Of a stretch of DNA of 64,000 nt, positions 9,530-27,319 are shown in pieces; position 1 is the first letter of the stretch; every line of letters begins with the position of its first letter. The notes beneath the pieces were generated by a model that worked only from the letters and a program-made list of their open reading frames with translations, was not told where the DNA came from and made no database searches. A program made the translations under genes and the position numbers. The DNA is from a virus. Location of the stretch: positions 32,001 to 96,000 of IMG/VR virus record IMGVR_UViG_3300032238_000599, one strand, 5' to 3'.

Positions 9530-9829
9530 TTATAGTCCTAAAATAGTTTTTAAACTATTTCCTTTAGGTATGTATATTTGAGTTCCAGGAATAAAATCAA
9601 GGATAGGATCTTGAATAGCATCAAGATTGCGTTGAACAAACACCCACCACAGTGCCGAATCTCCATACAAGTCATGCGCTAGTAGATCTGGACGATGTGT
9701 ATATTGCGGTTCAATTGTATACAAGAAATCATCTTCTTCGGCACTAACTGGTCGAATTTTTAAAATGCCTAGATAATTATCTTGTACTTGAGTGGCGAAC
9801 CAAGGACTTTTAGGAGAATATTTTGCCAT
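9530..9829 (-). CDS. gp53: Baseplate wedge protein, gp53/LysM-like
   Basis: RPDLLAHDLYGDSALWWVF...N...DF.PG..IYIP LysM-like signature. Confidence 0.8.
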   Translation of the reverse strand: MAKYSPKSPWFATQVQDNYLGILKIRPVSAEEDDFLYTIEPQYTHRPDLLAHDLYGDSALWWVFVQRNLDAIQDPILDFIPGTQIYIPKGNSLKTILGL

Positions 9830-10851
9830 TAGATATATCCTGCACCAGAACTTGTCAATGTATCGCCATTGACAAATTTTTGTAAATTAAATGTACGCAC
9901 ACTTTCTCTGCTGTAGGCAACTTGAAGTGTAACGCTGAAAGTACTTTTTGTAGGAACGTGTGTTGTTCCACTAGCTGAGGTGCCGCCTAACCCGCTAATA
10001 AAATTACTAACGCTTGCGGCTGCTCCTGCTACTCCTGCAACTGAATTTGCTAAATTTGATATAGCTGGTATTCCCCCAGTTAGTCCTGCAATAAGGCCTG
10101 CTTGGTTAGCAATTCCTCCTAAGCCCGACGACCTTGATCCTGCCATTGGACTAGTAGCAATATAATCAGAATTTGCATCAAGCTGTACACTAAAGTTTGA
10201 AATTACTACAGGAACATTTTTAAAAACAAAGTCTCCGTATCCATTAAGTGCTAGAATAACAGGAGGATTGCCTGCTGGACTACTGTCGCCAGTAAACATT
10301 TTTGTGGCACTTCTTAAAAAGTGAACTGCCGCAATCCAGTACGCACCTTGTACGCTATCCTCAACTATAAAAGGTGCAGAAATTGTTATTGAATCTGGTT
10401 GACTATTTTGATATGCTTGGAACGGATAGTTATTGTGTACCGGACTTATTGCTTCATACTTAGCACTTCCTGATATATTAATAGTGGGTGTGTAGGGAAA
10501 CACAAGTCCGCCAGCAGCCTTTAACGGTGCAAACACCGAACTTGAATCAAATATGGTTCCGCCTGGTACACTTAATCGAACACGCCAATCGTTGTTAGCA
10601 TCGGCGCCGCCAAATATTGCAGACGCAGAAATTACCTTTCCAACAATGTTTCCACCAGCTGGTAAATTAATGCTTCGCAATTTACTGAGTAGATTAGTTG
10701 GGTTGGCTAAATTACTAAGTGCCGAACTTAATTGCATTCCTGCGCTACTTAAACTGCCTAGTTGCCCAAAGGCAGCTACGGCATTTGAACCCACCGATTG
10801 CGCCGCGTTTGCGACTGTGTTTATACCTGCGCCTAAGTCAAATCCTGCCAT
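9829..10851 (-). CDS. Baseplate tail-tube initiator/cap (gp48/gp54-like)
   Basis: GLVFPYTP and GNPPVILALNGYGDFVFKNVPVVISNFSV tube-fold motifs; first gene of the baseplate operon. Confidence 0.55.
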   Translation of the reverse strand: MAGFDLGAGINTVANAAQSVGSNAVAAFGQLGSLSSAGMQLSSALSNLANPTNLLSKLRSINLPAGGNIVGKVISASAIFGGADANNDWRVRLSVPGGTIFDSSSVFAPLKAAGGLVFPYTPTINISGSAKYEAISPVHNNYPFQAYQNSQPDSITISAPFIVEDSVQGAYWIAAVHFLRSATKMFTGDSSPAGNPPVILALNGYGDFVFKNVPVVISNFSVQLDANSDYIATSPMAGSRSSGLGGIANQAGLIAGLTGGIPAISNLANSVAGVAGAAASVSNFISGLGGTSASGTTHVPTKSTFSVTLQVAYSRESVRTFNLQKFVNGDTLTSSGAGYI

Positions 10852-10871
10852 TTTGAGTATCTCCTATACTC

Positions 10872-10879
10872 TATTTATT
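10872..10879 (-). promoter_or_regulatory. Late promoter (AATAAATA) for the baseplate operon
   Basis: tatttatt on the + strand, upstream of an AGGAG RBS and the ATG at 10851. Confidence 0.7.
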
Positions 10880-10907
10880 TGACAAAATTATCTGCGTAGT
10901 TTATAAT
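10879..10907 (+). promoter_or_regulatory. Perfect-consensus sigma70 (early) promoter for gp55-gp47-gp46
   Basis: TTGACA (10879-10884), 17-nt spacer, TATAAT (10902-10907); the gp55 ATG is at 10931. Confidence 0.85.
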
Positions 10908-10930
10908 AGCACATCAGGATCCGAGGAAAG

Positions 10931-11755
10931 ATGACTAAAGTAAATTACTTAAACAACAAAGACATATTAGAAGAAATCCACCGTTCGAAGAATACCTATT
11001 CGAGCTATACAAAACCAGAATATAGTAGCTACGATCTTATTCTGCCTAATTTGGATAAAATTAATATTCGCACTATAGCAGAAGCTAAACGTGCTAAAGC
11101 CAAACGACAAAGCCAAGCTGAGTACGAAAGGCGCAAAAAAGAGGGTGAAAAAGTCAAACAAGCAGACTGCGAAGTTGACTATAAAAAGATTAAAAAAGAA
11201 GATCTAGTATTCCGTATAATGACGTTTGATCATATACCGACAAACAGCACACGAAAGAAAAATCCTAAAACAGTTGCTGACGGACGAGACAAAGTTAATT
11301 TTCCTCCATATCAGCACTGGAAGTTTGATGAGAATGATCAATTAATCTGTGTTGGAAAGAGTCACTGGAAAGGTCCGGTGGACACTGGCAAGTTCAACAA
11401 AGATCATGGGCAAATTACAAACACCTTAGCTCGTATGTACATTAAACTCTGCGAACGATATGCTACTCGCGGAAACGTTCGCGGCTACACATATAACGAC
11501 GAAATGAAAGGGCAGGCTATTTTACAGCTTACACAAATTGGTTTACAGTTTGATGAAAGTAAATCAAACAATCCGTTTGCCTATTATACTGCGGCTGTTA
11601 CTAACAGTTTCGTTAGAGTTATTAATATTGAAAAACGTAATCAAAACATTCGAGATGACATTTTAGAAATCAACGGCATGAATCCTTCTTACACTAGAAC
11701 AGGGGAAGGTGAATATGCTAATGCTATGAAACGCCACAACGAGGATCATGAATGA
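10931..11755 (+). CDS. gp55: Late-transcription sigma factor, T4 gp55-like
   Basis: NYLNNKDIL, LCERYATRGNVRGYTYNDEM and FDESKSNNPFAYYT motifs; directly upstream of gp47/gp46 as in T4-like phages. Confidence 0.85.
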   Translation: MTKVNYLNNKDILEEIHRSKNTYSSYTKPEYSSYDLILPNLDKINIRTIAEAKRAKAKRQSQAEYERRKKEGEKVKQADCEVDYKKIKKEDLVFRIMTFDHIPTNSTRKKNPKTVADGRDKVNFPPYQHWKFDENDQLICVGKSHWKGPVDTGKFNKDHGQITNTLARMYIKLCERYATRGNVRGYTYNDEMKGQAILQLTQIGLQFDESKSNNPFAYYTAAVTNSFVRVINIEKRNQNIRDDILEINGMNPSYTRTGEGEYANAMKRHNEDHE

Positions 11756-12762
11756 GCTTATTTAAAAAAGCCGCATTATTTACAGACATACACTTTGGTT
11801 TAAAGTCTAACAGCCATACACATAATCAAGACTGTGAGGATTTTGTAGACTGGTATATTGCAAAAGCCAAGGAGGAAGGCTGTGACACTGGAATTTTTAT
11901 GGGTGATTGGCATCACAATCGGAACAGTCTTAACATCACTACTATGGACTATAGCCTTAGGGCCTTGGAAAAACTGGGTCAGGCGTTCAATCAATTTTAC
12001 TTTTTCCCTGGTAATCATGATCTATATTACAAGGACAAGCGGGATATCCATTCAGTCGAGTTCGGTAAGTACATACCTGGAATTACTGTGGTACATGAAC
12101 CTATTACCATTGGCGATGTTACATTATGCCCTTGGCTCGTCGGCGACGAATGGAAGGCAATAGGTAAAAAGAAAGCCAAATATATCTTTGGGCATTTTGA
12201 ACTTCCGCATTTTTACATGAATGCAATGGTACAAATGCCAGACCATGGGGAAATACAACTAGATGCATTTAACGGTTATGAGATGGGCTTTAGCGGGCAC
12301 TTCCATAAGCGTCAAAGCAAAGGTAATATGCACTATATCGGCAATGCATTTCCACACAACTATGCAGATGCTTGGGATGATGACCGAGGAATGTGTATAT
12401 TAGAGTGGGGTGGCACGCCAACTTATCACAGTTGGCCTGAACAACCTACATTCCGTACAGTAAAACTAAGTCAGCTTATCGACGAAGCTGATACTCTGAT
12501 TAAACCTAAACAACACTTGCGTGTTAGCTTAGACATTGATATTAGTTACGAAGAGGCAAGTTTTATTAAAGAAAAGTTTATGTCGGATTATGAGATTAGA
12601 GAACTTACTTTAATCACTGAAAAGAAAGACGTTGAAATTAATACAGACATCAATATTCAAGCCTTTGAAAGTGTTGATCAGATTGTGTCCAATCAGATTG
12701 TAAGTATTCAAAGCGATACGTATAATACAAATACTTTACTGGCAATTTATAACAGCCTATGA
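11752..12762 (+). CDS. gp47: Recombination endonuclease subunit (Mre11/SbcD-like)
   Basis: Metallophosphoesterase motifs DIH, GDWHH, GNHD, GHFE and GHFH; ATGA overlap with gp55. Confidence 0.9.
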   Translation: MSLFKKAALFTDIHFGLKSNSHTHNQDCEDFVDWYIAKAKEEGCDTGIFMGDWHHNRNSLNITTMDYSLRALEKLGQAFNQFYFFPGNHDLYYKDKRDIHSVEFGKYIPGITVVHEPITIGDVTLCPWLVGDEWKAIGKKKAKYIFGHFELPHFYMNAMVQMPDHGEIQLDAFNGYEMGFSGHFHKRQSKGNMHYIGNAFPHNYADAWDDDRGMCILEWGGTPTYHSWPEQPTFRTVKLSQLIDEADTLIKPKQHLRVSLDIDISYEEASFIKEKFMSDYEIRELTLITEKKDVEINTDINIQAFESVDQIVSNQIVSIQSDTYNTNTLLAIYNSL

Positions 12763-14540
12763 TAAAAATTAAAGATTTAACTGTAAAAAACTTTATGAGT
12801 GTGGGCAATCAAACCCAGGCTGTAGATTTTTGCAAAGAACAACTTACACTAGTTCTAGGAGAAAACTTAGATCAAGGTGGAGATGATAGTGGTTCACGTA
12901 ACGGCACAGGTAAAACAACAATTGTCAATGCATTAAGTTATGCACTTTACGGGCAAGCACTAACAAACATTAAAAAAGATAATTTAATCAACAAGATTAA
13001 CAATAAGAATATGTTGGTTACACTACATTTTGAAAAAGATGGGGTAGATTATCGAATCGAGCGTGGACGTAAGCCTAACATTCTTAAGTTTTATATTAAC
13101 GATCAAGAACAAGACGCCGAAGAAAGTGATGATGCACAAGGCGACATGCGTGAAACACAAAAGGATTTAGATGATATCCTAGGTATGAGTCACGATATGT
13201 TTAAGCATATTCTAGCACTTAATACCTATACTGAGCCTTTCTTAAGTATGCGTAGCGGTGATCAACGTGCTATTATTGAACAGTTGCTAGGTATTACTAT
13301 TCTTAGCGAAAAAGCAGAAGCACTTAAAGAATTAGTTCGGTTAACTAAAGAACAAATAACACAAGAAAGTGCTAACATTGAAGCGTCACGTAAGTCTAAC
13401 GAAAAAATACAAGAAAGTATTCTAGCATTAGAGCGTAGACAAACTATGTGGTTAGCAAAGAAAGAAGAAGACTTAACTAAGTTACTAAATCAATGGAACG
13501 AATTACAAAAAATCGACATTGAAGTTGAAATTCAATCTTGGAAGGATTTATCTGCGTACAATCAAAAGAAAAAAGATATTGGTGATATTACTTCAGCTAT
13601 CGCAAGATCCGAGACTGATCTAAATCGAGAACAATCTAATGTTAAGAAGCTAAACAAAGAACTAGCTTCATTAGCAGAACACAAATGTCATAGCTGTGGA
13701 CAAGAACTACATGATACTAAACATGAAGAACTGGTAAAAACTAAAACTGATAGTTTAGTAGAATCTGAAGAAACCATTAAAGAATATGAAGATCGTATTG
13801 TACAACTTCAAGAAGCAATTACAGAGCTAGGTGAATTAGGTCCTCAACCTAGTGTAGTCTATGCAAAAGAAGAAGATGCTATTCATCATCGTAGTACATT
13901 GTCTAGTTTAGAAAAACAAATAGCTTCTAAACAAGAAGAAACAGATCCATATCAAGAACAAATTGACGATATTAAACAAACTGCCTTACAAGAAATTGTT
14001 TGGGACAAAGTTAATGAACTTAACAGTTTAAAAGATCATCAAGAATTCCTACTTAAACTTTTAACTAGCAAAGATAGTTTTATCCGTAAGAAGATTATTG
14101 ATCAAAACTTAGCATACTTAAACAATCGTTTAACTTATTATCTTGATAAGATGGGTTTGCCGCACACTGTCAGTTTCTTAAACGACTTAAACGTAGAAAT
14201 TACACAACTAGGGCAAGACTTAGACTTTGATAACTTGTCACGCGGTGAACGCAACAGACTTATCTTAGGGTTGTCATGGGCATTCCGTGATGTGTGGGAA
14301 AGTTTATATCAAAACATTAACTTGTTATTCATTGATGAGTTAATTGACAACGGACTAGATGCCAACGGTGTTGAAAACGCACTAGCAGTTCTTAAGAAGA
14401 TGGGCAGAGAACGTAATAAAAACGTTTATCTAATTAGTCACAAGGATGAATTAATTGGGCGTGTTAACAATGTACTTAAAGTTATTAAAGAAAATGGCTT
14501 TACATCATACGCGAACGATTTAGAAATAGAAGATGAATGA
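12759..14540 (+). CDS. gp46: Recombination ATPase subunit (Rad50/SbcC-like)
   Basis: Walker A NGTGKTT, coiled coil with CHSC zinc hook, signature LSRGER, Walker B LLFIDE and ISH. Confidence 0.92.
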   Translation: MIKIKDLTVKNFMSVGNQTQAVDFCKEQLTLVLGENLDQGGDDSGSRNGTGKTTIVNALSYALYGQALTNIKKDNLINKINNKNMLVTLHFEKDGVDYRIERGRKPNILKFYINDQEQDAEESDDAQGDMRETQKDLDDILGMSHDMFKHILALNTYTEPFLSMRSGDQRAIIEQLLGITILSEKAEALKELVRLTKEQITQESANIEASRKSNEKIQESILALERRQTMWLAKKEEDLTKLLNQWNELQKIDIEVEIQSWKDLSAYNQKKKDIGDITSAIARSETDLNREQSNVKKLNKELASLAEHKCHSCGQELHDTKHEELVKTKTDSLVESEETIKEYEDRIVQLQEAITELGELGPQPSVVYAKEEDAIHHRSTLSSLEKQIASKQEETDPYQEQIDDIKQTALQEIVWDKVNELNSLKDHQEFLLKLLTSKDSFIRKKIIDQNLAYLNNRLTYYLDKMGLPHTVSFLNDLNVEITQLGQDLDFDNLSRGERNRLILGLSWAFRDVWESLYQNINLLFIDELIDNGLDANGVENALAVLKKMGRERNKNVYLISHKDELIGRVNNVLKVIKENGFTSYANDLEIEDE

Positions 14541-14778
14541 TTCACATGACGAATTACTAAAGGCTTTCAGGCAATACTTTGAAGCTAACCAACGGTGGAT
14601 TAATGACCAAACACGAGTTGCGGGCATGGATATGCGGTGGTGGCTTTCAGAAATTAGGCGAATATGCACAAGGCGACGGGCAGAGGTACAGGAATGGCGC
14701 CACGAAGTGGACAGCGCAAAGCGCGAACGGAAAAAGCGCCAAAAAGAGGAGGCCAGTAAAGGCAAAGATAATACATAG
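14533..14778 (+). CDS. Small basic helical hypothetical protein (81 aa)
   Basis: Overlaps the end of gp46 and abuts the next gene; Arg/Lys-rich. Confidence 0.55.
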   Translation: MNDSHDELLKAFRQYFEANQRWINDQTRVAGMDMRWWLSEIRRICTRRRAEVQEWRHEVDSAKRERKKRQKEEASKGKDNT

Positions 14779-14781
14779 TTG

Positions 14782-15219
14782 ATGTCATGGTATTATCAAA
14801 ACTCAATAATCGAAACTCTACCCGAAGAATGTATAGGCTTCGTTTATTGTATCACTAATAACATCACTGGTCGCAAGTATATAGGCAAGAAATTAGCAAA
14901 ATTCTCTAAGACAACTTATAAAACAGTAAAACTCAAAAACGGCAACAAGAAGAAAAAACGGATTCGATCTAAAATCGATTCTGATTGGCGTGAATACTAT
15001 GGCAGCAACGACCAACTAAACAAAGACGTAGAACAACTAGGCGCAGAAAACTTTCACAGAGAGATACTTTATTACTGCACATCAAAGGCTGAATGTAGTT
15101 ATATCGAGGCTCGAGAACAATTCTCAAGGCGAGTATTAGAATCAGACGACTACTACAACGGACAAATCGCTGTTCGTGTACACGGCTCACATATTAAAGG
15201 CAAACAATTAAACGGTTAA
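14782..15219 (+). CDS. Minimal GIY-YIG family endonuclease (145 aa)
   Basis: GFVYCITNNITGRKYIG (GIY-YIG), candidate catalytic Glu in CSYIEAREQ and the YYN motif. ATG at 14782 preferred over TTG at 14779. Confidence 0.75.
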   Translation: MSWYYQNSIIETLPEECIGFVYCITNNITGRKYIGKKLAKFSKTTYKTVKLKNGNKKKKRIRSKIDSDWREYYGSNDQLNKDVEQLGAENFHREILYYCTSKAECSYIEAREQFSRRVLESDDYYNGQIAVRVHGSHIKGKQLNG

Positions 15220-15220
15220 G

Positions 15221-15650
15221 GCAAGCGTCAGCTAATATCAGACGCCCTATACCTGGATCTTGGATCGCAGGGATGGAAAACTCTCGCCGTTAAGAGTGCT
15301 CAACCACTACCCGAAAGGATGAGGATCGCTTGTAAGCCCTGCGATTTGGTTGTTTGAAAAGGAAAGTATAGGCAAAAGGAAGGGAGAAAAACCCTACGTA
15401 TACGCTAGTGATAGCAGATTTGCGTATACCGCCGTTGTAAGAAGACGGAGCTCGTGGTACAGGACAACCGCCACTGTAATGCTCTACTGCTGTGTGACAT
15501 TGTGCAACTCAGATAATGTTTATTTTTAGCCCGGAAACGGGCTAAGTGTGACTGAACAATCTAGATAATATCTTAAGTGCTTCGCACTTCATTATAACTA
15601 GTAAAATGCGTTGAGCTTTAGCGAAAACGCAAGTGAGCTTCAGCTCACTA
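15221..15650 (+). ncRNA. Candidate large structured non-coding RNA, class not recognised
   Basis: The largest intergenic gap in the window, ~47-48% GC over 15221-15540 by hand count. More than ten helices, GAAA tetraloops, G-U pairs that work on the + strand, and possible pseudoknots. Confidence 0.7.
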
Positions 15651-15652
15651 TT

Positions 15653-15660
15653 AATAAATA
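15653..15660 (+). promoter_or_regulatory. Late promoter (AATAAATA)
   Basis: 20 nt upstream of the ATG at 15681. Confidence 0.65.
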
Positions 15661-15680
15661 AACTATATTGAGCTTGAACG

Positions 15681-16685
15681 ATGAAAATTTCTGAATTATT
15701 AATTGAAAAAGAAACACCTGTTAAGGGAAAGACTGACTCAGGTAATCCTGCTGGTGCGGCTGTAATAGCAGGTGGTGCTGTTGCTGGCGGAGCAATGGCC
15801 TTAAGTAAAGAATCAATTGGTAAATTTATTAAGACTAGCCAACGTCGTTGGAAAGTTAAAAACAAGATGACCGAGCGCAAAGTCGCTCGTATGATGGAAA
15901 AGTGGGGAACAGGTACTGTATGGTTGTTCCGTATTCTAGGAATGACCACAGTTGTATACCAATGCTACAGTGATCTTGCTAATCTAGAAGAAGATTACGA
16001 ACGTGGTGATGAAGAATTCTTAAAGACTCAGGCTGCTTATGAAGCTTGCCGTGAGTATGTATTCGGTGTAGCCATTGCTCAATTTGCTGTACAGACAGTA
16101 CATTGGGTAGCAGGTGGACGTATTGCTATGTGGATCTTCCGTGTGATACGTTGGGTTACAGCTGGTGCTACTGCTGGATTTACTGCTGGAGCTTCCGTTG
16201 CGGCTCTAATTGCCACAGAAGCTATGTTTGTATGGTTTGAAACTTGGATCGGTAGTGAAGAAGGTAAGCGTTGGATCTCTGAAACATTCTTAGGTGGTAT
16301 CTTACGTAACTTTGGTAAGATTCCTGATGGTGCTATCAGCAAACTAACTGATCACTATAGTAAAGCTAACACTAAAAAAGATGCTAATGCCGAGAAAACT
16401 GGCAAGCCAACAGCAAAAGATGACAGTAGAGATCCAGATAAAAACGATCGTTATGTTGACGGTGTGCTAGTAACTAATCCAGACGGATCAATTATTCCAG
16501 GTATTGAATCTAATGTTCGTGTTAAAAACGCTATTACACAAGCGGCAAAAGATGGCAAACCTAATCCATTAACTGCAATACGTGACGAGCTAAAAGCAGA
16601 CCCTGCTAAGACTCAACAAACCGCTCCTAGTCAAGGAGCACCAAAGAGTGCAGATGACTTGAGTTCTTTCAAGTACAGTCTTTAA
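15681..16685 (+). CDS. Late-expressed hypothetical protein with hydrophobic Gly/Ala-rich helices; possible capsid-internal protein
   Basis: N-terminus MKISELLIE; hydrophobic segments AGAAVIAGGAVAGGAMAL, YVFGVAIAQFAV and TAGATAGFTAGASVAALIA. Confidence 0.6.
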   Translation: MKISELLIEKETPVKGKTDSGNPAGAAVIAGGAVAGGAMALSKESIGKFIKTSQRRWKVKNKMTERKVARMMEKWGTGTVWLFRILGMTTVVYQCYSDLANLEEDYERGDEEFLKTQAAYEACREYVFGVAIAQFAVQTVHWVAGGRIAMWIFRVIRWVTAGATAGFTAGASVAALIATEAMFVWFETWIGSEEGKRWISETFLGGILRNFGKIPDGAISKLTDHYSKANTKKDANAEKTGKPTAKDDSRDPDKNDRYVDGVLVTNPDGSIIPGIESNVRVKNAITQAAKDGKPNPLTAIRDELKADPAKTQQTAPSQGAPKSADDLSSFKYSL

Positions 16686-26248: not shown

Positions 26249-26335
26249 TAAATACATAGTACGATCTACATGCCGTAGATTTTATGCGGAAATCCAACCG
26301 CGTATGGCCTAGAACGCCAACTTTCTTAAGGAGAA
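26249..26335 (+). promoter_or_regulatory. Late promoter (TAAATA, 26249-26254) followed by a three-hairpin structured 5' leader
   Basis: Hairpins ATCTAC/GTAGAT (26264-26280), TATGCGG/CCGCGTA (26283-26304) and TGGC/GCCA (26305-26319), then an AAGGAG RBS. Confidence 0.55.
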
Positions 26336-26341
26336 AACAAA

Positions 26342-27319
26342 ATGGGACGTCCTTTAAACAAAAAATATTTTGGTAACCGAAACATCGGTACCAACGGCTA
26401 TGTAACAGACAATAGCCCAAACGCTAATACACCAGAAGGTGATGATAAGATTGGTGGTGAAGGTATTGAATCTTACACACTACCAGTACAACTAGGTAGT
26501 ATCGAAGTTGATAGTAATAGCGGTCAACCAACATTAACAATTCCAGCACCGCAGATACCAGGCGGTGTACAAGCTACAGCTACAGTAGTTTGGGAAGTTG
26601 CAAGCATTACCATTAAAAATACAAATGACTATGGTACAAGCTATGTTAATGGCGAAACTGTAACATTTACAGGTGCTACTGGTGTAACTGCTACTGTTGC
26701 AGTTGCCGCAGACGACATTGGAGTTATTACCCCAGTTCTCCGCGGATCATTTACTACAATTCCATCGAGCGAATCATATAATATCATTGGCGCTGTAGGT
26801 AACGACGCACAAGCAGAAATTACTTGGCGTGTTAAATCTATTACTAAATTACAAAGAGGTTCAGGTTATACTACAGCTCCAACACTATCGTGGGCCGCTG
26901 GATTAGCTGGCGCAATTTCTGGAACAAGTCCAGGAGCTCCAACTGCGGTATTAACTGTTGATACAGGTGCAGTTGGTTCATCTACTAATCAAGAAAACGC
27001 AATTATTATTCGTGCTAACACTACTGATGATGGCACAAAAGTTGGCGATATTACTAAACAAACTAACACACGTAGCTACAAAGTTAAAACAGCAGACGGC
27101 ACAGCAGTTTGTAAACTAGTTGCAGACTCAACTCCAGGTTTTCAAGAAGCATATATTGTTGCTACTTCTGCATCGGGTGCTACATATTATGTTACTAAGC
27201 TAACAGGCCACAAAGCAACACTAGTAACAAAAACTGGTGACGGAGCATTAAATGGTAAAGCCGCTCCATGGACATTTAACTCAACAGCTAACGGTCGAGT
27301 AATCATCGAAAACGCATAA
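26342..27319 (+). CDS. Virion structural protein (MGRPL family, paralogue 1)
   Basis: Thr/Gly-rich beta protein directly after the MCP; GSGYTTAPT motif. Confidence 0.55.
   Translation: MGRPLNKKYFGNRNIGTNGYVTDNSPNANTPEGDDKIGGEGIESYTLPVQLGSIEVDSNSGQPTLTIPAPQIPGGVQATATVVWEVASITIKNTNDYGTSYVNGETVTFTGATGVTATVAVAADDIGVITPVLRGSFTTIPSSESYNIIGAVGNDAQAEITWRVKSITKLQRGSGYTTAPTLSWAAGLAGAISGTSPGAPTAVLTVDTGAVGSSTNQENAIIIRANTTDDGTKVGDITKQTNTRSYKVKTADGTAVCKLVADSTPGFQEAYIVATSASGATYYVTKLTGHKATLVTKTGDGALNGKAAPWTFNSTANGRVIIENA

What the first reader, a model, noticed from the sequence alone, without database searches (positions are those of the whole stretch)
14782..15650. Minimal GIY-YIG nuclease followed by a large, ornate structured RNA: candidate nuclease-RNA system
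Seen: pairing starts within a few nt of the GIY-YIG stop and continues for ~430 nt in a GC-enriched stretch. Helices: GCGTC/GACGC (15225-29/15241-45); CCTATAC/GTATAGG (15246-52/15366-72), enclosing ATCGCAGGG/CCCTGCGAT (15264-72/15337-45); inside that, a multiloop with ACTCT/AGAGT and CTCA/TGAG capped by CC-GAAA-GG; AGGG/CCCT (15381-95); GTATACGC/GCGTATAC (15398-405/15422-29); CCGTT/GACGG; GAGC/GCTC enclosing GTGG/CCAC; ACATTGT/ATAATGT; TTAGCCCG-GAAA-CGGGCTAA (15526-45). Possible pseudoknots: ATAGCAG (15411-17) with CTGCTGT (15487-93), CAACCA (15301-06) with TGGTTG (15347-52), and CACTA (15305-09) with TAGTG (15406-10). Established: GIY-YIG homing endonucleases such as I-TevI get their specificity from appended DNA-binding domains. 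This 145-aa protein has none, but carries a very basic insertion (KTVKLKNGNKKKKRIRSK). Inference: protein and RNA may form an RNP (RNA-guided or RNA-regulated nuclease, by analogy with HEARO/IscB). Alternatively the RNA is a replication/recombination primer working with neighbouring gp46/47.
Basis: partly seen in the sequence, partly recalled or inferred. Interest (0 to 1): 0.85.

Follow-up and report, generated by a model that had tools for sequence, protein, structure and literature searches.

The report
Twin-box phage RNA behind nuclease gene
The gene-free stretch behind a small DNA-cutting enzyme gene of this uncultured giant freshwater T4-like phage encodes a real, about 430-base, multiply knotted non-coding RNA; only its first third is catalogued (Rfam Polynucleobacter-1), it is probably not the enzyme's guide, and it carries one 7-letter word twice for a purpose still unproven.

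Summary
Window 15220-15649 (+) is a real structured RNA gene. The remaining ~300 nt are uncatalogued but equally conserved.

A consensus of 18 helices, including three pseudoknots, is backed by covariation in 69 relatives.

Two 7-nt boxes (AGATAAT, 15511-17 and 15563-69) are identical to each other in 84 of 94 unique RNAs, in 10 different words. The word changed at least 26 times, always in both boxes. I found no partner for it.

The 146-aa gene upstream is an intact SegE-type GIY-YIG nuclease. Several results argue against a dedicated nuclease-RNA pair:
- Relatives put a PD-(D/E)xK nuclease in the same slot, and cultured cousins a RusA or Endo VII resolvase.
- Cultured phages with the GIY-YIG homologue have no such RNA.
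- Bacterial islands carry the RNA without any such nuclease.

My best reading is an independent RNA at the end of the recombination operon. Its boxes most simply re-pair with its own DNA, giving an R-loop or primer role. This is inferred, not shown.

This scan has reported the same RNA family many times on other genomes.

The parts
11752..14540 (+). gp47-like (Mre11/SbcD-type, 11752-12762) and gp46-like (Rad50/SbcC-type, 12759-14540) recombination nuclease genes. They head the operon that ends with the RNA.
   Evidence: Pfam Metallophos and AAA_23/SMC_N. Synteny gp47-gp46-(orf81)-nuclease-RNA is kept in nearly all related loci. Cultured relatives are annotated as SbcD/SbcC-like.
14533..14778 (+). 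81-aa very basic protein gene (orf81), overlapping the gp46 stop and abutting the nuclease gene.
   Evidence: ORF list. No Pfam or PHROG hit for the window copy. The positional counterpart in L074 hits histone-H1-like Hc1 (PF07432, E 6e-9). Present in only part of the relatives.
14779..15219 (+). 146-aa catalytic-domain-only GIY-YIG nuclease gene (start TTG 14779 or ATG 14782).
   Evidence: PF19835 SegE_GIY-YIG, E 5e-33, full profile. phrog_447, mis-named 'NAD synthetase', E 1e-37. GFVY...YIGK, SDW, R, E and YN motifs are invariant in 148 unique homologues. AF2 model pLDDT 84.
15220..15649 (+). The whole structured RNA, about 430 nt.
   Evidence: Conservation profile. Covariation test of 18 helices. 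nhmmer and CM hits in more than 170 viral loci.
15220..15355 (+). 5' domain, equal to the Rfam Polynucleobacter-1 motif. Helices: P1 15225-29/15241-45; a small 5' pseudoknot 15220-22/15231-33; P2 15253-59/15263-70; P3 15280-84/15293-97; P4 15301-06/15347-52; P5 15311-12/15317-18; P6 15324-29/15341-46.
   Evidence: RF01718, 115 bits against gathering score 37, model 1-141. Helices 1-9 are 77-98% paired with double changes.
15381..15395 (+). Hairpin P7 (AGGG/CCCT).
   Evidence: helix 10: all 4 pairs change on both sides.
15398..15429 (+). Hairpin P8 (12 bp). Its loop 15411-15417 forms a pseudoknot with 15487-15493.
   Evidence: helices 1 and 2: all 12 and all 7 pairs have double changes, at 89.6% and 95.5% paired.
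15434..15485 (+). Second knot. GTTGT 15434-38 pairs with ACAAC 15464-68, which lies inside the loop of the P10/P11 hairpin (15447-51/15481-85 and 15454-57/15471-74).
   Evidence: helices 3-5 (95.3%, 91.0% and 99.6% paired). MI pairs.
15511..15517 (+). Twin box 1 (AGATAAT), unpaired, preceded by CTC.
   Evidence: Identical to box 2 in 84 of 94 unique RNAs, in 10 words of the form RNATRAD. MI to its twin is about 1.0, with no Watson-Crick partner. At least 26 changes on the tree.
15526..15545 (+). Hairpin P13 (TTAGCCCG-GAAA-CGGGCTAA) between the two boxes.
   Evidence: Kept in all relatives. MAFFT shifts its register by one column, so counts understate it. MI 15529-15543 is 0.90 with 5 pair types.
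15563..15569 (+). Twin box 2 (AGATAAT), preceded by TCT, 52 nt after box 1. A GTGTGAC motif also occurs twice (15491-97 and 15547-53).
   Evidence: Spacing in relatives is 47-63 nt.
15577..15649 (+). 3' tail: P14 15577-80/15584-87, P15 15608-12/15626-30 around a conserved GAGC..AGCGAA core, and P16 15632-38/15643-49.
   Evidence: helices 19-22 (P16 is 92.7% paired, with all 6 pairs changing on both sides). The same tail is seen in the divergent variant of L367.
15651..15664 (+). TAATAAATAAA, a T4-type late-promoter-like word just after the RNA and ahead of the 334-aa ORF at 15681-16685.
   Evidence: Sequence. TATAAATA-like words stand at the same place in relatives (alignment end). That this is a late promoter is inference from knowledge of T4.

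Best explanation
**What it is (about 0.95).** This is the full-length form of the orphan Polynucleobacter-1 RNA. It is an independent, strand-specific, roughly 430-nt non-coding RNA with at least three pseudoknots.

**Where it sits.** It is carried in a fixed place by a large clade of uncultured aquatic jumbo T4-like phages. That place is the end of the gp47-gp46 recombination operon, just before the baseplate-hub late genes. It was found once in this 145-kb record.

**The gene in front of it (about 0.7).** That gene fills a 'resolvase slot'. Different relatives place there a minimal GIY-YIG nuclease (as here), a PD-(D/E)xK nuclease, a RusA-like resolvase or an Endo VII. The 146-aa GIY-YIG protein is therefore most likely a structure-specific DNA nuclease that works without the RNA. 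The adjacency reflects a shared operon and a shared process. It does not indicate a guide-effector pair (independence about 0.8).

**How the RNA works (inferred, about 0.3, still my first choice).**
- The transcript folds co-transcriptionally.
- Its two single-stranded, purine-rich 7-nt boxes must be identical. The RNA copy of one box re-pairs with the template DNA strand of the other, or with an antisense copy.
- This anchors the RNA to its own DNA as an R-loop, which primes or marks DNA replication or recombination. ColE1 RNA II and the T4 oriF/oriG transcripts work this way.
- Small integrative islands of Burkholderiales carry the same RNA without the phage enzymes. That is what one expects of elements that borrow a helper's cis-acting signal.

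**Shown:** the RNA, its fold, its distribution, the twin-box rule and the slot swapping.
**Inferred:** transcription, the R-loop and any role in replication.
For: - **Identity:** RF01718 at 115 bits over 15220-15355. Conservation runs over the whole 430 nt.
- **Fold:** 18 helices and 3 knots are supported by covariation.
- **Not coding, not a known RNA class:** no conserved ORF, no tRNA or tmRNA, no other Rfam family.
- **Twin boxes:** 84 of 94 are identical, in 10 words. There are at least 26 independent word changes with both boxes always alike. No intramolecular Watson-Crick partner exists. No third copy or complement lies within 3 kb, and there is no genome-wide enrichment. A partner needing only two coordinated changes, the boxes themselves, is therefore the most economical.
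- **Twin boxes elsewhere:** bacterial copies and a divergent third variant keep twin boxes with other words.
- **Slot swapping:**
  - L074 has PF24608 in place of GIY-YIG.
  - 32-33 of 80 PD-(D/E)xK loci are followed by the RNA.
  - PA5oct has RusA and 121Q has Endo VII after gp46.
  - The two nuclease types look mutually exclusive in the records searched.
- **Independence:** Melnitz, B3 and Syn19 have the GIY-YIG homologue and no RNA. In P-SSM2 the homologue is directly followed by another gene.
- **Bacterial copies:** these lack the nuclease. They sit between a DUF6641 gene and an integrase or cargo genes.
- **Precedent:** T4 origins use R-loop primers and lie at borders between gene modules (PMC3016281).
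Against: - No transcript data could be obtained, so even expression in this phage is inferred.
- T4 R-loop origins need no specific sequence or ornate RNA (PMC3016281).
- Seven base pairs is a weak anchor.
- The cumulative GC-skew minimum lies at window ~10.9 kb, where gene orientation flips, and not at the RNA.
- No unwinding element or dedicated promoter was identified.
- The invariant, knotted 5' and core domains look more like a protein- or ligand-binding RNA than a simple primer.
- A small nuclease gene lies upstream on the same strand in every real instance: directly upstream in 105 of 112, with other genes between in 7. A functional tie between 'a nuclease' and the RNA is therefore not excluded.
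- The viral records are fragments (this one is 39% complete by CheckV). 'Once per genome' and 'mutually exclusive' are provisional.
Confidence: 0.45

Rival explanations
1. Trans-acting RNP or decoy. The RNA is a stable scaffold that binds a phage or host factor. The twin boxes are two identical docking words for two copies of one external reader: a dimeric protein, two copies of a host RNA, or a repeat-bearing nucleic acid. The function is unrelated to priming.
For: - The fold is ornate, with invariant single-stranded nucleotides (CACUA, GGGA.GGAA, GGUAC, ACCGCC) and three knots. This is typical of RNAs that bind proteins or ligands.
- The RNA occurs in two unrelated genetic contexts, phage and island.
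- The boxes are unpaired.
Against: - The word changed at least 26 times among 84 close relatives. An external reader would have had to follow each time.
- No co-varying complement lies within 3 kb.
- No word or palindrome enrichment in the genome.
- No tRNA genes in the record.
Confidence: 0.25
2. The RNA and the adjacent minimal nuclease form an RNP, and the RNA guides, activates or restrains the nuclease. In a wider form, the RNA addresses whichever minimal DNA enzyme sits beside it.
For: - The adjacency is tight and nearly universal.
- The RNA starts 1 nt after the stop codon.
- Two unrelated catalytic-domain-only nucleases alternate in the slot directly in front of the RNA.
- In bacterial islands a short (192-218 aa) tyrosine recombinase often follows the RNA.
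Against: - The nuclease family occurs without the RNA in complete cultured genomes.
- The RNA occurs without the nuclease in bacteria.
- Unrelated genes are inserted between the two in 7 loci.
- Cultured cousins fill the slot with ordinary resolvases.
- No guide-sized variable segment exists, only 7 nt, present twice and identical.
- The nuclease is more conserved than gp46, while the boxes change fast.
Confidence: 0.08
3. Homing-endonuclease target. The RNA gene is simply a very conserved sequence. Free-standing selfish nuclease genes (GIY-YIG, PD-(D/E)xK) lodge next to it and replace each other there. The boxes change quickly to escape cleavage, and the RNA's own function keeps them alike.
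For: - The best Pfam and PHROG relatives of the protein are seg-type homing endonucleases.
- Different nuclease families occupy one intergenic slot beside a conserved RNA gene.
- The boxes evolve fast.
Against: - The slot is filled in all 112 real instances, not sporadically.
- The protein lacks the DNA-binding domain that gives homing enzymes their specificity (146 aa).
- The protein is under strong purifying selection: 74-95% identity where gp46 is 50-70%.
- Cultured cousins have bona fide resolvase families in the slot.
Confidence: 0.1
4. No RNA is involved. The element works as DNA: single-stranded DNA hairpins plus two iterons for a sequence-specific initiator or packaging protein.
For: - Identical direct repeats that evolve in step are typical of iterons.
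- The tail contains small G+C hairpins (P14-P16).
- There is no expression evidence.
Against: - Many G-U pairs are kept on the + strand only (for example UG:13 and GU:16 in P8).
- Long-range pseudoknots are kept by covariation.
- Box spacing varies from 47 to 63 bp, so it is not in helical phase.
- The 5' third belongs to an Rfam family, built from comparative evidence for RNA structure.
Confidence: 0.07

Closest known systems
Polynucleobacter-1 RNA motif (Rfam RF01718; Weinberg et al. 2010, Genome Biol 11:R31, PMC2864571)
   Same: Window 15220-15355 matches the whole 141-position model at 115 bits. The environment is the same (fresh water, Burkholderiales). The upstream gene family is the same one the authors noted (GOS11034 / PSSM2_218, which is this GIY-YIG family).
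   Different: - The Rfam model covers only the first third. The authors saw a 3' extension in a few truncated rows but did not model it.
- The knotted core, twin boxes and tail (15356-15649) are uncatalogued.
- The authors found it in no purified phage. Here it is a fixed gene of T4-like jumbo phages.
- In about a quarter of GIY-type relatives the 5' domain is replaced by one that RF01718 misses, while the 3' core stays.
R-loop origin transcripts: ColE1 RNA II, and the T4 oriF/oriG primers (Kreuzer & Brister 2010, PMC3016281)
   Same: These are non-coding transcripts next to replication or recombination genes and at a border with late genes. RNA II (own knowledge) is a folded RNA of about 550 nt, in which an upstream RNA stretch pairs with template DNA at a downstream stretch of the same sequence. 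That would explain why the two boxes must be identical.
   Different: - Nothing here is shown experimentally.
- T4 R-loops need no specific sequence.
- No promoter plus unwinding element was identified.
- The skew minimum is not at the RNA.
- The boxes are only 7 nt long.
HEARO/omega RNA with IscB, and other RNA-guided nucleases
   Same: A large structured RNA lies next to a small nuclease gene in mobile or viral DNA.
   Different: - Protein and RNA are separable here in both directions.
- There is no guide-length variable segment.
- The nuclease is swapped for unrelated families and for resolvases.
Large orphan bacterial and phage ncRNAs (GOLLD, ROOL, OLE, raiA class)
   Same: Size of several hundred nt, multiple pseudoknots, association with phages or prophages, discovery by comparative genomics, and unknown biochemical role.
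   Different: There is no sequence or model similarity. The twin-box feature and the fixed position behind a recombination operon are particular to this family. What I say about those RNAs is from my own knowledge and was not tested here.

Membership tests
Rfam RF01718 Polynucleobacter-1 | Covariance-model score above the curated gathering score over the full model | tested here: met
   115 bits against 37, model positions 1-141, E 3e-24. 1.7e-27 in the whole record, single copy.
Rfam RF01718 Polynucleobacter-1 | Model helices kept by compensatory changes in relatives | tested here: met
   Helices 2-9 (P1-P6) are 77-98% paired, with double changes in most pairs.
GIY-YIG nuclease superfamily (SegE-type domain PF19835) | Profile match over the whole catalytic domain | tested here: met
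   E 5.4e-33, 114 bits against cut-off 25, profile 1-123/123.
GIY-YIG nuclease superfamily (SegE-type domain PF19835) | Catalytic motifs (GIY, YIG, Arg, Glu, Asn) present and conserved | tested here: met
   GFVY, YIGK, SDW, R93, E109/E112 and Y125-N126 are invariant in 20 to 148 homologues. The assignment to catalytic roles is by analogy with I-TevI (own knowledge). Fold match to 1ln0 is only weak (prob 0.77, E 0.47).
Free-standing homing endonuclease (seg/I-TevI type) | Appended sequence-specific DNA-binding domain | tested here: not met
   146 aa, with the Pfam domain covering residues 4-130. No second domain. The model shows one domain plus a disordered tail.
Free-standing homing endonuclease (seg/I-TevI type) | Sporadic presence or absence among close relatives | tested here: not met
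   A nuclease gene stands upstream of all 112 real RNA instances. The protein is 74-95% identical across the 80 best viral loci.
RNA-guided nuclease system (IscB/HEARO-like) | Obligate co-occurrence of the protein family and the RNA family | tested here: not met
   Protein without RNA: Melnitz, B3, Syn19, P-SSM2. RNA without protein: five bacterial genomes.
RNA-guided nuclease system (IscB/HEARO-like) | A variable guide segment long enough to specify a target | tested here: not met
   The only fast-changing segment is 7 nt, present twice and identical. The word occurs 20 times in 145 kb, with 17.4 expected.
RNA-guided nuclease system (IscB/HEARO-like) | Physical protein-RNA complex and RNA-dependent cleavage | not testable with these tools
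   Needs biochemistry. The complex predictor offered takes no RNA.
R-loop replication origin (T4 oriF/oriG, ColE1 RNA II type) | Promoter followed by an unwinding element; persistent RNA-DNA hybrid; origin activity | not testable with these tools
   The consensus promoter scan is at chance level. The hybrid and initiation need experiments.
R-loop replication origin (T4 oriF/oriG, ColE1 RNA II type) | Compositional-skew switch at the site | tested here: not met
   The cumulative GC-skew minimum is at window ~10.9 kb, where gene orientation flips. That is 4.3 kb upstream of the RNA. T4-type phages have several origins, so this is weak evidence.
tmRNA / tRNA-like / group I intron | Detection by ARAGORN or the Rfam models | tested here: not met
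   ARAGORN finds no gene in the window or the record. No Rfam hit other than RF01718 up to E = 10.

The most novel reading that the evidence does not exclude
The RNA is an addressing module for interchangeable, domain-poor DNA enzymes. In phages these are a catalytic-domain-only GIY-YIG or PD-(D/E)xK nuclease. In bacterial islands it is a 192-218-aa tyrosine recombinase that lacks the usual N-terminal DNA-binding domains. The two identical boxes would hold two DNA sites, or the two strands of one site, that share the same 7-nt word. This resembles a bridge RNA whose two loops read one common core. It would be a new class of RNA-directed DNA cutting or recombination. My data do not exclude this. 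They weigh against it, because protein and RNA are separable and no box-matching site was found at the island borders or within 3 kb.
Probability: 0.06. Interest if true: 0.95.

Novelty: new variant of a known kind. Interest (0 to 1): 0.6.

Why it matters
- Polynucleobacter-1 has been an orphan motif since 2010. Here it proves to be the first third of a 430-nt, triply knotted RNA that is a fixed gene of a very large group of uncultured aquatic jumbo T4-like phages. More than 170 viral contigs carried it in one sampling, and it is also carried by small islands in Burkholderiales.
- Large conserved RNAs of this complexity are rare and have usually led to new biochemistry.
- The twin-box rule (two 7-nt words that changed at least 26 times but never apart) is a sharp, testable constraint that any model of function must explain.
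- If the boxes anchor the transcript to its own DNA, this would be a sequence-addressed R-loop origin. It would also explain how small islands could ride on jumbo phages.
- The 'resolvase slot' reading gives a function to a gene family widely mis-annotated as 'NAD synthetase' in cyanophage genomes.
- The exciting reading, an RNA-guided GIY-YIG nuclease, is probably wrong.

Tried and rejected
- **Public RNA runs:** none was listed for window 14300-16300, so no reads were laid.
- **Partner search for the boxes:**
  - Own-box 7-mer or its complement within +-3 kb of 84 loci: only the two boxes themselves.
  - Genome-wide count in the 145-kb record: 20 and 22 occurrences against 17.4 and 17.6 expected. 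A third copy at 14766, just before the nuclease start, is not reproduced in relatives.
  - Palindromes made of box plus complement: 9 of 83 loci, against 6.3 for foreign boxes. The AGATAATTATCT at 9771 is taken as chance.
  - Intramolecular partner by mutual information: none.
  - Box-matching words at bacterial island borders: none convincing.
- **Translational bypass or small ORF ending at the boxes** (the boxes read codon + UAA/UGA): there is no conserved open frame upstream.
- **tRNA or tmRNA:** none.
- **Other Rfam families** at E up to 10: none.
- **Promoter and terminator scan:** chance level.
- **GC skew:** the minimum lies at the gene-orientation switch and not at the RNA.
- **DNA similarity to cultured phages:** no match.
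- **3' core model R1 in cultured phages:** no match in Melnitz, B3, Syn19, PA5oct, Atu_ph07 or 121Q. An earlier scan note that E. coli giant phages carry the family could therefore not be reproduced with this model.
- **DUF6641, the islands' constant neighbour:** not found in phages.
- **Pattern hits L036, L044, L077 and L097:** chance matches. Most of the 120 genome contigs pattern hits are chance matches too.
- **Foldseek of the nuclease model against the PDB:** nothing significant. phmmer against the PDB gave only a marginal hit.
- **The truncated Limnohabitans copy:** examined as a possible recombination breakpoint at the boxes. The break is about 190 nt into the RNA and not at the boxes.
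Full report
**What is there.** The window is part (32001-96000) of a 145-kb IMG/VR virus record that CheckV rates 39% complete. Around the finding the + strand carries these genes:
- gp47-like and gp46-like recombination nuclease genes (11752-14540);
- an 81-aa basic ORF (14533-14778);
- a 146-aa ORF (14779-15219);
- a 460-nt stretch without a credible ORF;
- a 334-aa ORF of no known family.

After these come gp51-like and gp26-like baseplate-hub genes on the other strand. The 146-aa protein matches the whole SegE-type GIY-YIG domain (PF19835, E 5e-33). It also matches phrog_447, a family of 148-aa stand-alone proteins that databases mis-name 'NAD synthetase'.

**The RNA is real, and its first third is known.** Rfam finds Polynucleobacter-1 (RF01718) at 15220-15355, at 115 bits against a gathering score of 37.
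- The only paper in the library that names the motif is Weinberg et al. 2010 (PMC2864571).
- Its supplement says most examples lie downstream of genes of family GOS11034, with possible homology to PSSM2_218 of cyanophage P-SSM2, and that no purified phage had the motif.
- I checked that PSSM2_218 ('NAD synthetase', 145 aa) is a homologue of the window's nuclease (38% identity, E 8e-22).
- The nuclease-RNA adjacency was therefore seen in 2010 without recognising the nuclease.
- The original alignment also holds a few truncated rows whose 3' extension resembles window 15356-15450.

**Extent and fold.** A pattern scan of IMG/VR gave 120 loci, and a protein scan with the nuclease gave 80 more out of at least 587.
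- In 94 unique relatives, conservation runs from 15220 to about 15650 and then collapses.
- On 69 sequences less than 88% identical to one another, a consensus of 95 pairs in 18 helices is 85.4% paired, against 71.5% in shuffles. Its covariation score is 0.391 against 0.166 (0 of 500 shuffles reach it) and at most 0.102 when partners are slid.
- Three pseudoknots are supported: 15220-22/15231-33, 15411-17/15487-93 and 15434-38/15464-68.
- Six are not: CCTATAC/GTATAGG, ATCGCAGGG/CCCTGCGAT, CTCA/TGAG, CCGTT/GACGG, ACATTGT/ATAATGT and CACTA/TAGTG. These behave like shuffled columns.
- No conserved ORF, tRNA, tmRNA or further Rfam family fits.

**Twin boxes.** Mutual information shows column pairs that co-vary by identity and not by complementarity: 15511/15563, 15512/15564, 15515/15567 and 15517/15569.
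- The two 7-mers at 15511-17 and 15563-69 (AGATAAT here) flank hairpin P13.
- They are identical in 84 of 94 unique RNAs, in ten words of the form R-N-A-T-R-A-D. The exceptions are chance hits or a divergent subtype that MAFFT misaligns.
- On a tree built from the rest of the RNA, the word changed at least 26 times, and position 1 at least 16 times.
- The boxes have no Watson-Crick partner inside the RNA.
- No third copy or complement lies within 3 kb in 84 loci.
- There is no enrichment in the record and no palindromic operator-like sites.
- Bacterial copies and a divergent phage variant keep the same architecture with other words, such as ATCGAAAG, ACCAAAAG, GCAAAAT and GGCAATGT.

**Is the nuclease tied to the RNA?**
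- Positionally, yes.
  - Of 116 testable pattern loci, four are chance hits.
  - Of the 112 real ones, 104 have the GIY-YIG gene directly upstream.
  - Seven have it 0.7-1.9 kb upstream, with unrelated genes in between (radical-SAM and unknown proteins).
  - One (L074) has a PD-(D/E)xK nuclease (PF24608, E 1e-27) in the slot.
  - From the protein side, all 73 loci with enough downstream sequence have the RNA's 3' domain. In about 19 of them the 5' domain is a different one that RF01718 misses.
- Functionally, the tie looks loose.
  - The PD-(D/E)xK swap is not a curiosity. Of 80 viral loci with homologues of that enzyme, all those with recognisable flanks share the gp46-...-gp51/gp26 context. 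32-33 are followed by the RNA.
  - Many of the rest have a 480-660-nt ORF-free gap holding a third variant with the same tail and twin boxes.
  - The window's record has no PF24608 gene, and four of five PD-type records have no SegE-type gene.
  - The closest cultured relatives by gp46 are jumbo phages PA5oct (50%), Atu_ph07 and 121Q. After gp46 they carry a RusA-like resolvase (PA5oct) or Endo VII (121Q).
  - The slot is thus a place for small junction-cutting enzymes of at least four unrelated folds.
  - Complete genomes of cultured phages that encode the GIY-YIG homologue (Melnitz 49%, S. phage B3, Syn19) have no RF01718 next to it and no match to my model of the 3' core anywhere.
  - In P-SSM2 the next gene overlaps the homologue's stop.

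**The RNA without the nuclease.** Screening genome-contig hits with a profile of the RNA left a few phage-like contigs and several Burkholderiales-type genomes: Limnohabitans sp. Bal53, a Comamonadaceae MAG, a Sterolibacterium MAG, a contig binned as Nitrospira lenta, and others.
- Five genomes hold seven copies, one of them truncated.
- None has the nuclease nearby.
- Every copy has a DUF6641 gene divergently upstream.
- A short tyrosine recombinase (192-218 aa) or cargo genes follow.
- Flanking genes differ between genomes, and one genome has two units in tandem. These are therefore small mobile islands.
- DUF6641 was not found in phages.

**Interpretation.**
- The element is the full-length Polynucleobacter-1 RNA, an independent gene (about 0.95).
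- The GIY-YIG protein is best read as a structure-specific nuclease in the recombination operon (about 0.7, by position and by what replaces it). Its catalytic motifs are invariant, and its basic stretch models as a beta-hairpin arm.
- For the RNA's mechanism I commit, at about 0.3, to self-pairing with its own DNA.
  - Identity co-variation needs a reader that changes with the boxes.
  - The only reader that needs no third coordinated change is the complementary DNA strand, or an antisense copy, of the other box.
  - That would tether the transcript as an R-loop. T4 uses R-loops to start replication at origins placed at module borders (PMC3016281). ColE1 RNA II forms one through two like-sequence stretches (own knowledge).
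  - Islands that carry only the RNA would then be borrowing a cis-acting signal.
- Against this reading:
  - T4 R-loops need no special sequence.
  - Seven pairs are few.
  - The skew minimum is elsewhere.
  - I have no expression data.
- The rivals are scored in their own section: an RNP or decoy with an external reader, a homing target, a guide RNA, and a DNA-only element.

**Relation to earlier notes of this scan.** The scan has reported this family many times on other genomes: 218 notes in at least 152 genomes hold the search words.
- Earlier agents also describe the twin boxes, nuclease-free islands, a swappable 'resolvase slot' and a replication-primer guess.
- I reached the twin boxes, the PD-(D/E)xK swap, the islands and the self-pairing idea from my own analyses.
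- These notes are not independent evidence.
- One note's claim of copies in cultured E. coli giant phages was not reproduced with my model.

**Verdict.** A real and remarkable RNA, a known motif in a much fuller form. The proposed nuclease-RNA system is probably not what it is.

Noticed in passing
window 26264-26344 (+): A second catalogued orphan RNA. Rfam freshwater-2 (RF02980, cis-regulatory) scores 72 bits against gathering score 49.9 and ends at an AAGGAG...ATG start site.
   Followed up: no
L074:1666-2184 (-) and loci L342-L408: A PD-(D/E)xK nuclease (PF24608) takes the place of the GIY-YIG gene directly in front of the RNA in many related phages. 32-33 of 80 such loci have the RNA.
   Followed up: yes
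L367:2062-2534 (+); also L380, L397, L377: A third, more divergent variant of the RNA that neither RF01718 nor my 3' core model detects. The gap is ORF-free and has the same GAGCG..AGCGAA tail and terminal hairpin. Twin 7-10-mers (GGCAATGT, CAGCAATGGT) stand 50-56 nt apart around a hairpin.
   Followed up: partly
L150, L185 and about 17 other GIY-type loci: The 5' domain (the Rfam motif) is replaced by a different, unmatched sequence of about 190 nt, while the 3' core is kept. The two halves of the RNA therefore evolve as modules.
   Followed up: partly
L332-L337 (Comamonadaceae, Limnohabitans, Sterolibacterium and other genomes): Small mobile islands have the order small ORF, DUF6641 gene, divergent RNA, then short tyrosine recombinase or cargo. 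One genome has two units in tandem. A three-gene cassette (AAA ATPase plus two unknowns) next to the recombinase is inverted between two genomes.
   Followed up: partly
L337:3766-3973 (Limnohabitans sp. Bal53, contig C4): This RNA copy is truncated after about 190 nt. About 200-480 nt further on lies a segment that, in the full units, sits upstream of the island. The layout is permuted and suggests rearrangement or a circular intermediate.
   Followed up: partly
L271:2096-2212 (-): An ALIL pseudoknot (RF01497, the IS3-family frameshift element) lies about 900 nt from a 5'-domain-only RNA copy. An insertion sequence has probably disrupted that copy.
   Followed up: no
window 14533-14778 (+): The 81-aa lysine/arginine-rich ORF between gp46 and the nuclease has no family hit here. 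Its positional counterpart in L074 matches histone-H1-like Hc1 (PF07432).
   Followed up: partly
window 9771-9782: A perfect 12-nt palindrome AGATAATTATCT, made of the box word and its complement, lies in an intergenic gap. Such palindromes are not enriched in relatives, so I take it as chance.
   Followed up: yes
L425:5659-6494 (Escherichia phage 121Q): An 836-nt stretch without annotated genes lies between Endo VII and the gp51/gp26-like genes, which is the position of the RNA in the window. There is no match to my model or to Rfam, and no convincing twin boxes.
   Followed up: partly
window 10851-10931: Gene orientation flips from - to + here, and the cumulative GC skew of the record has its minimum here. 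This is a better candidate for a compositional origin signal than the RNA locus.
   Followed up: no
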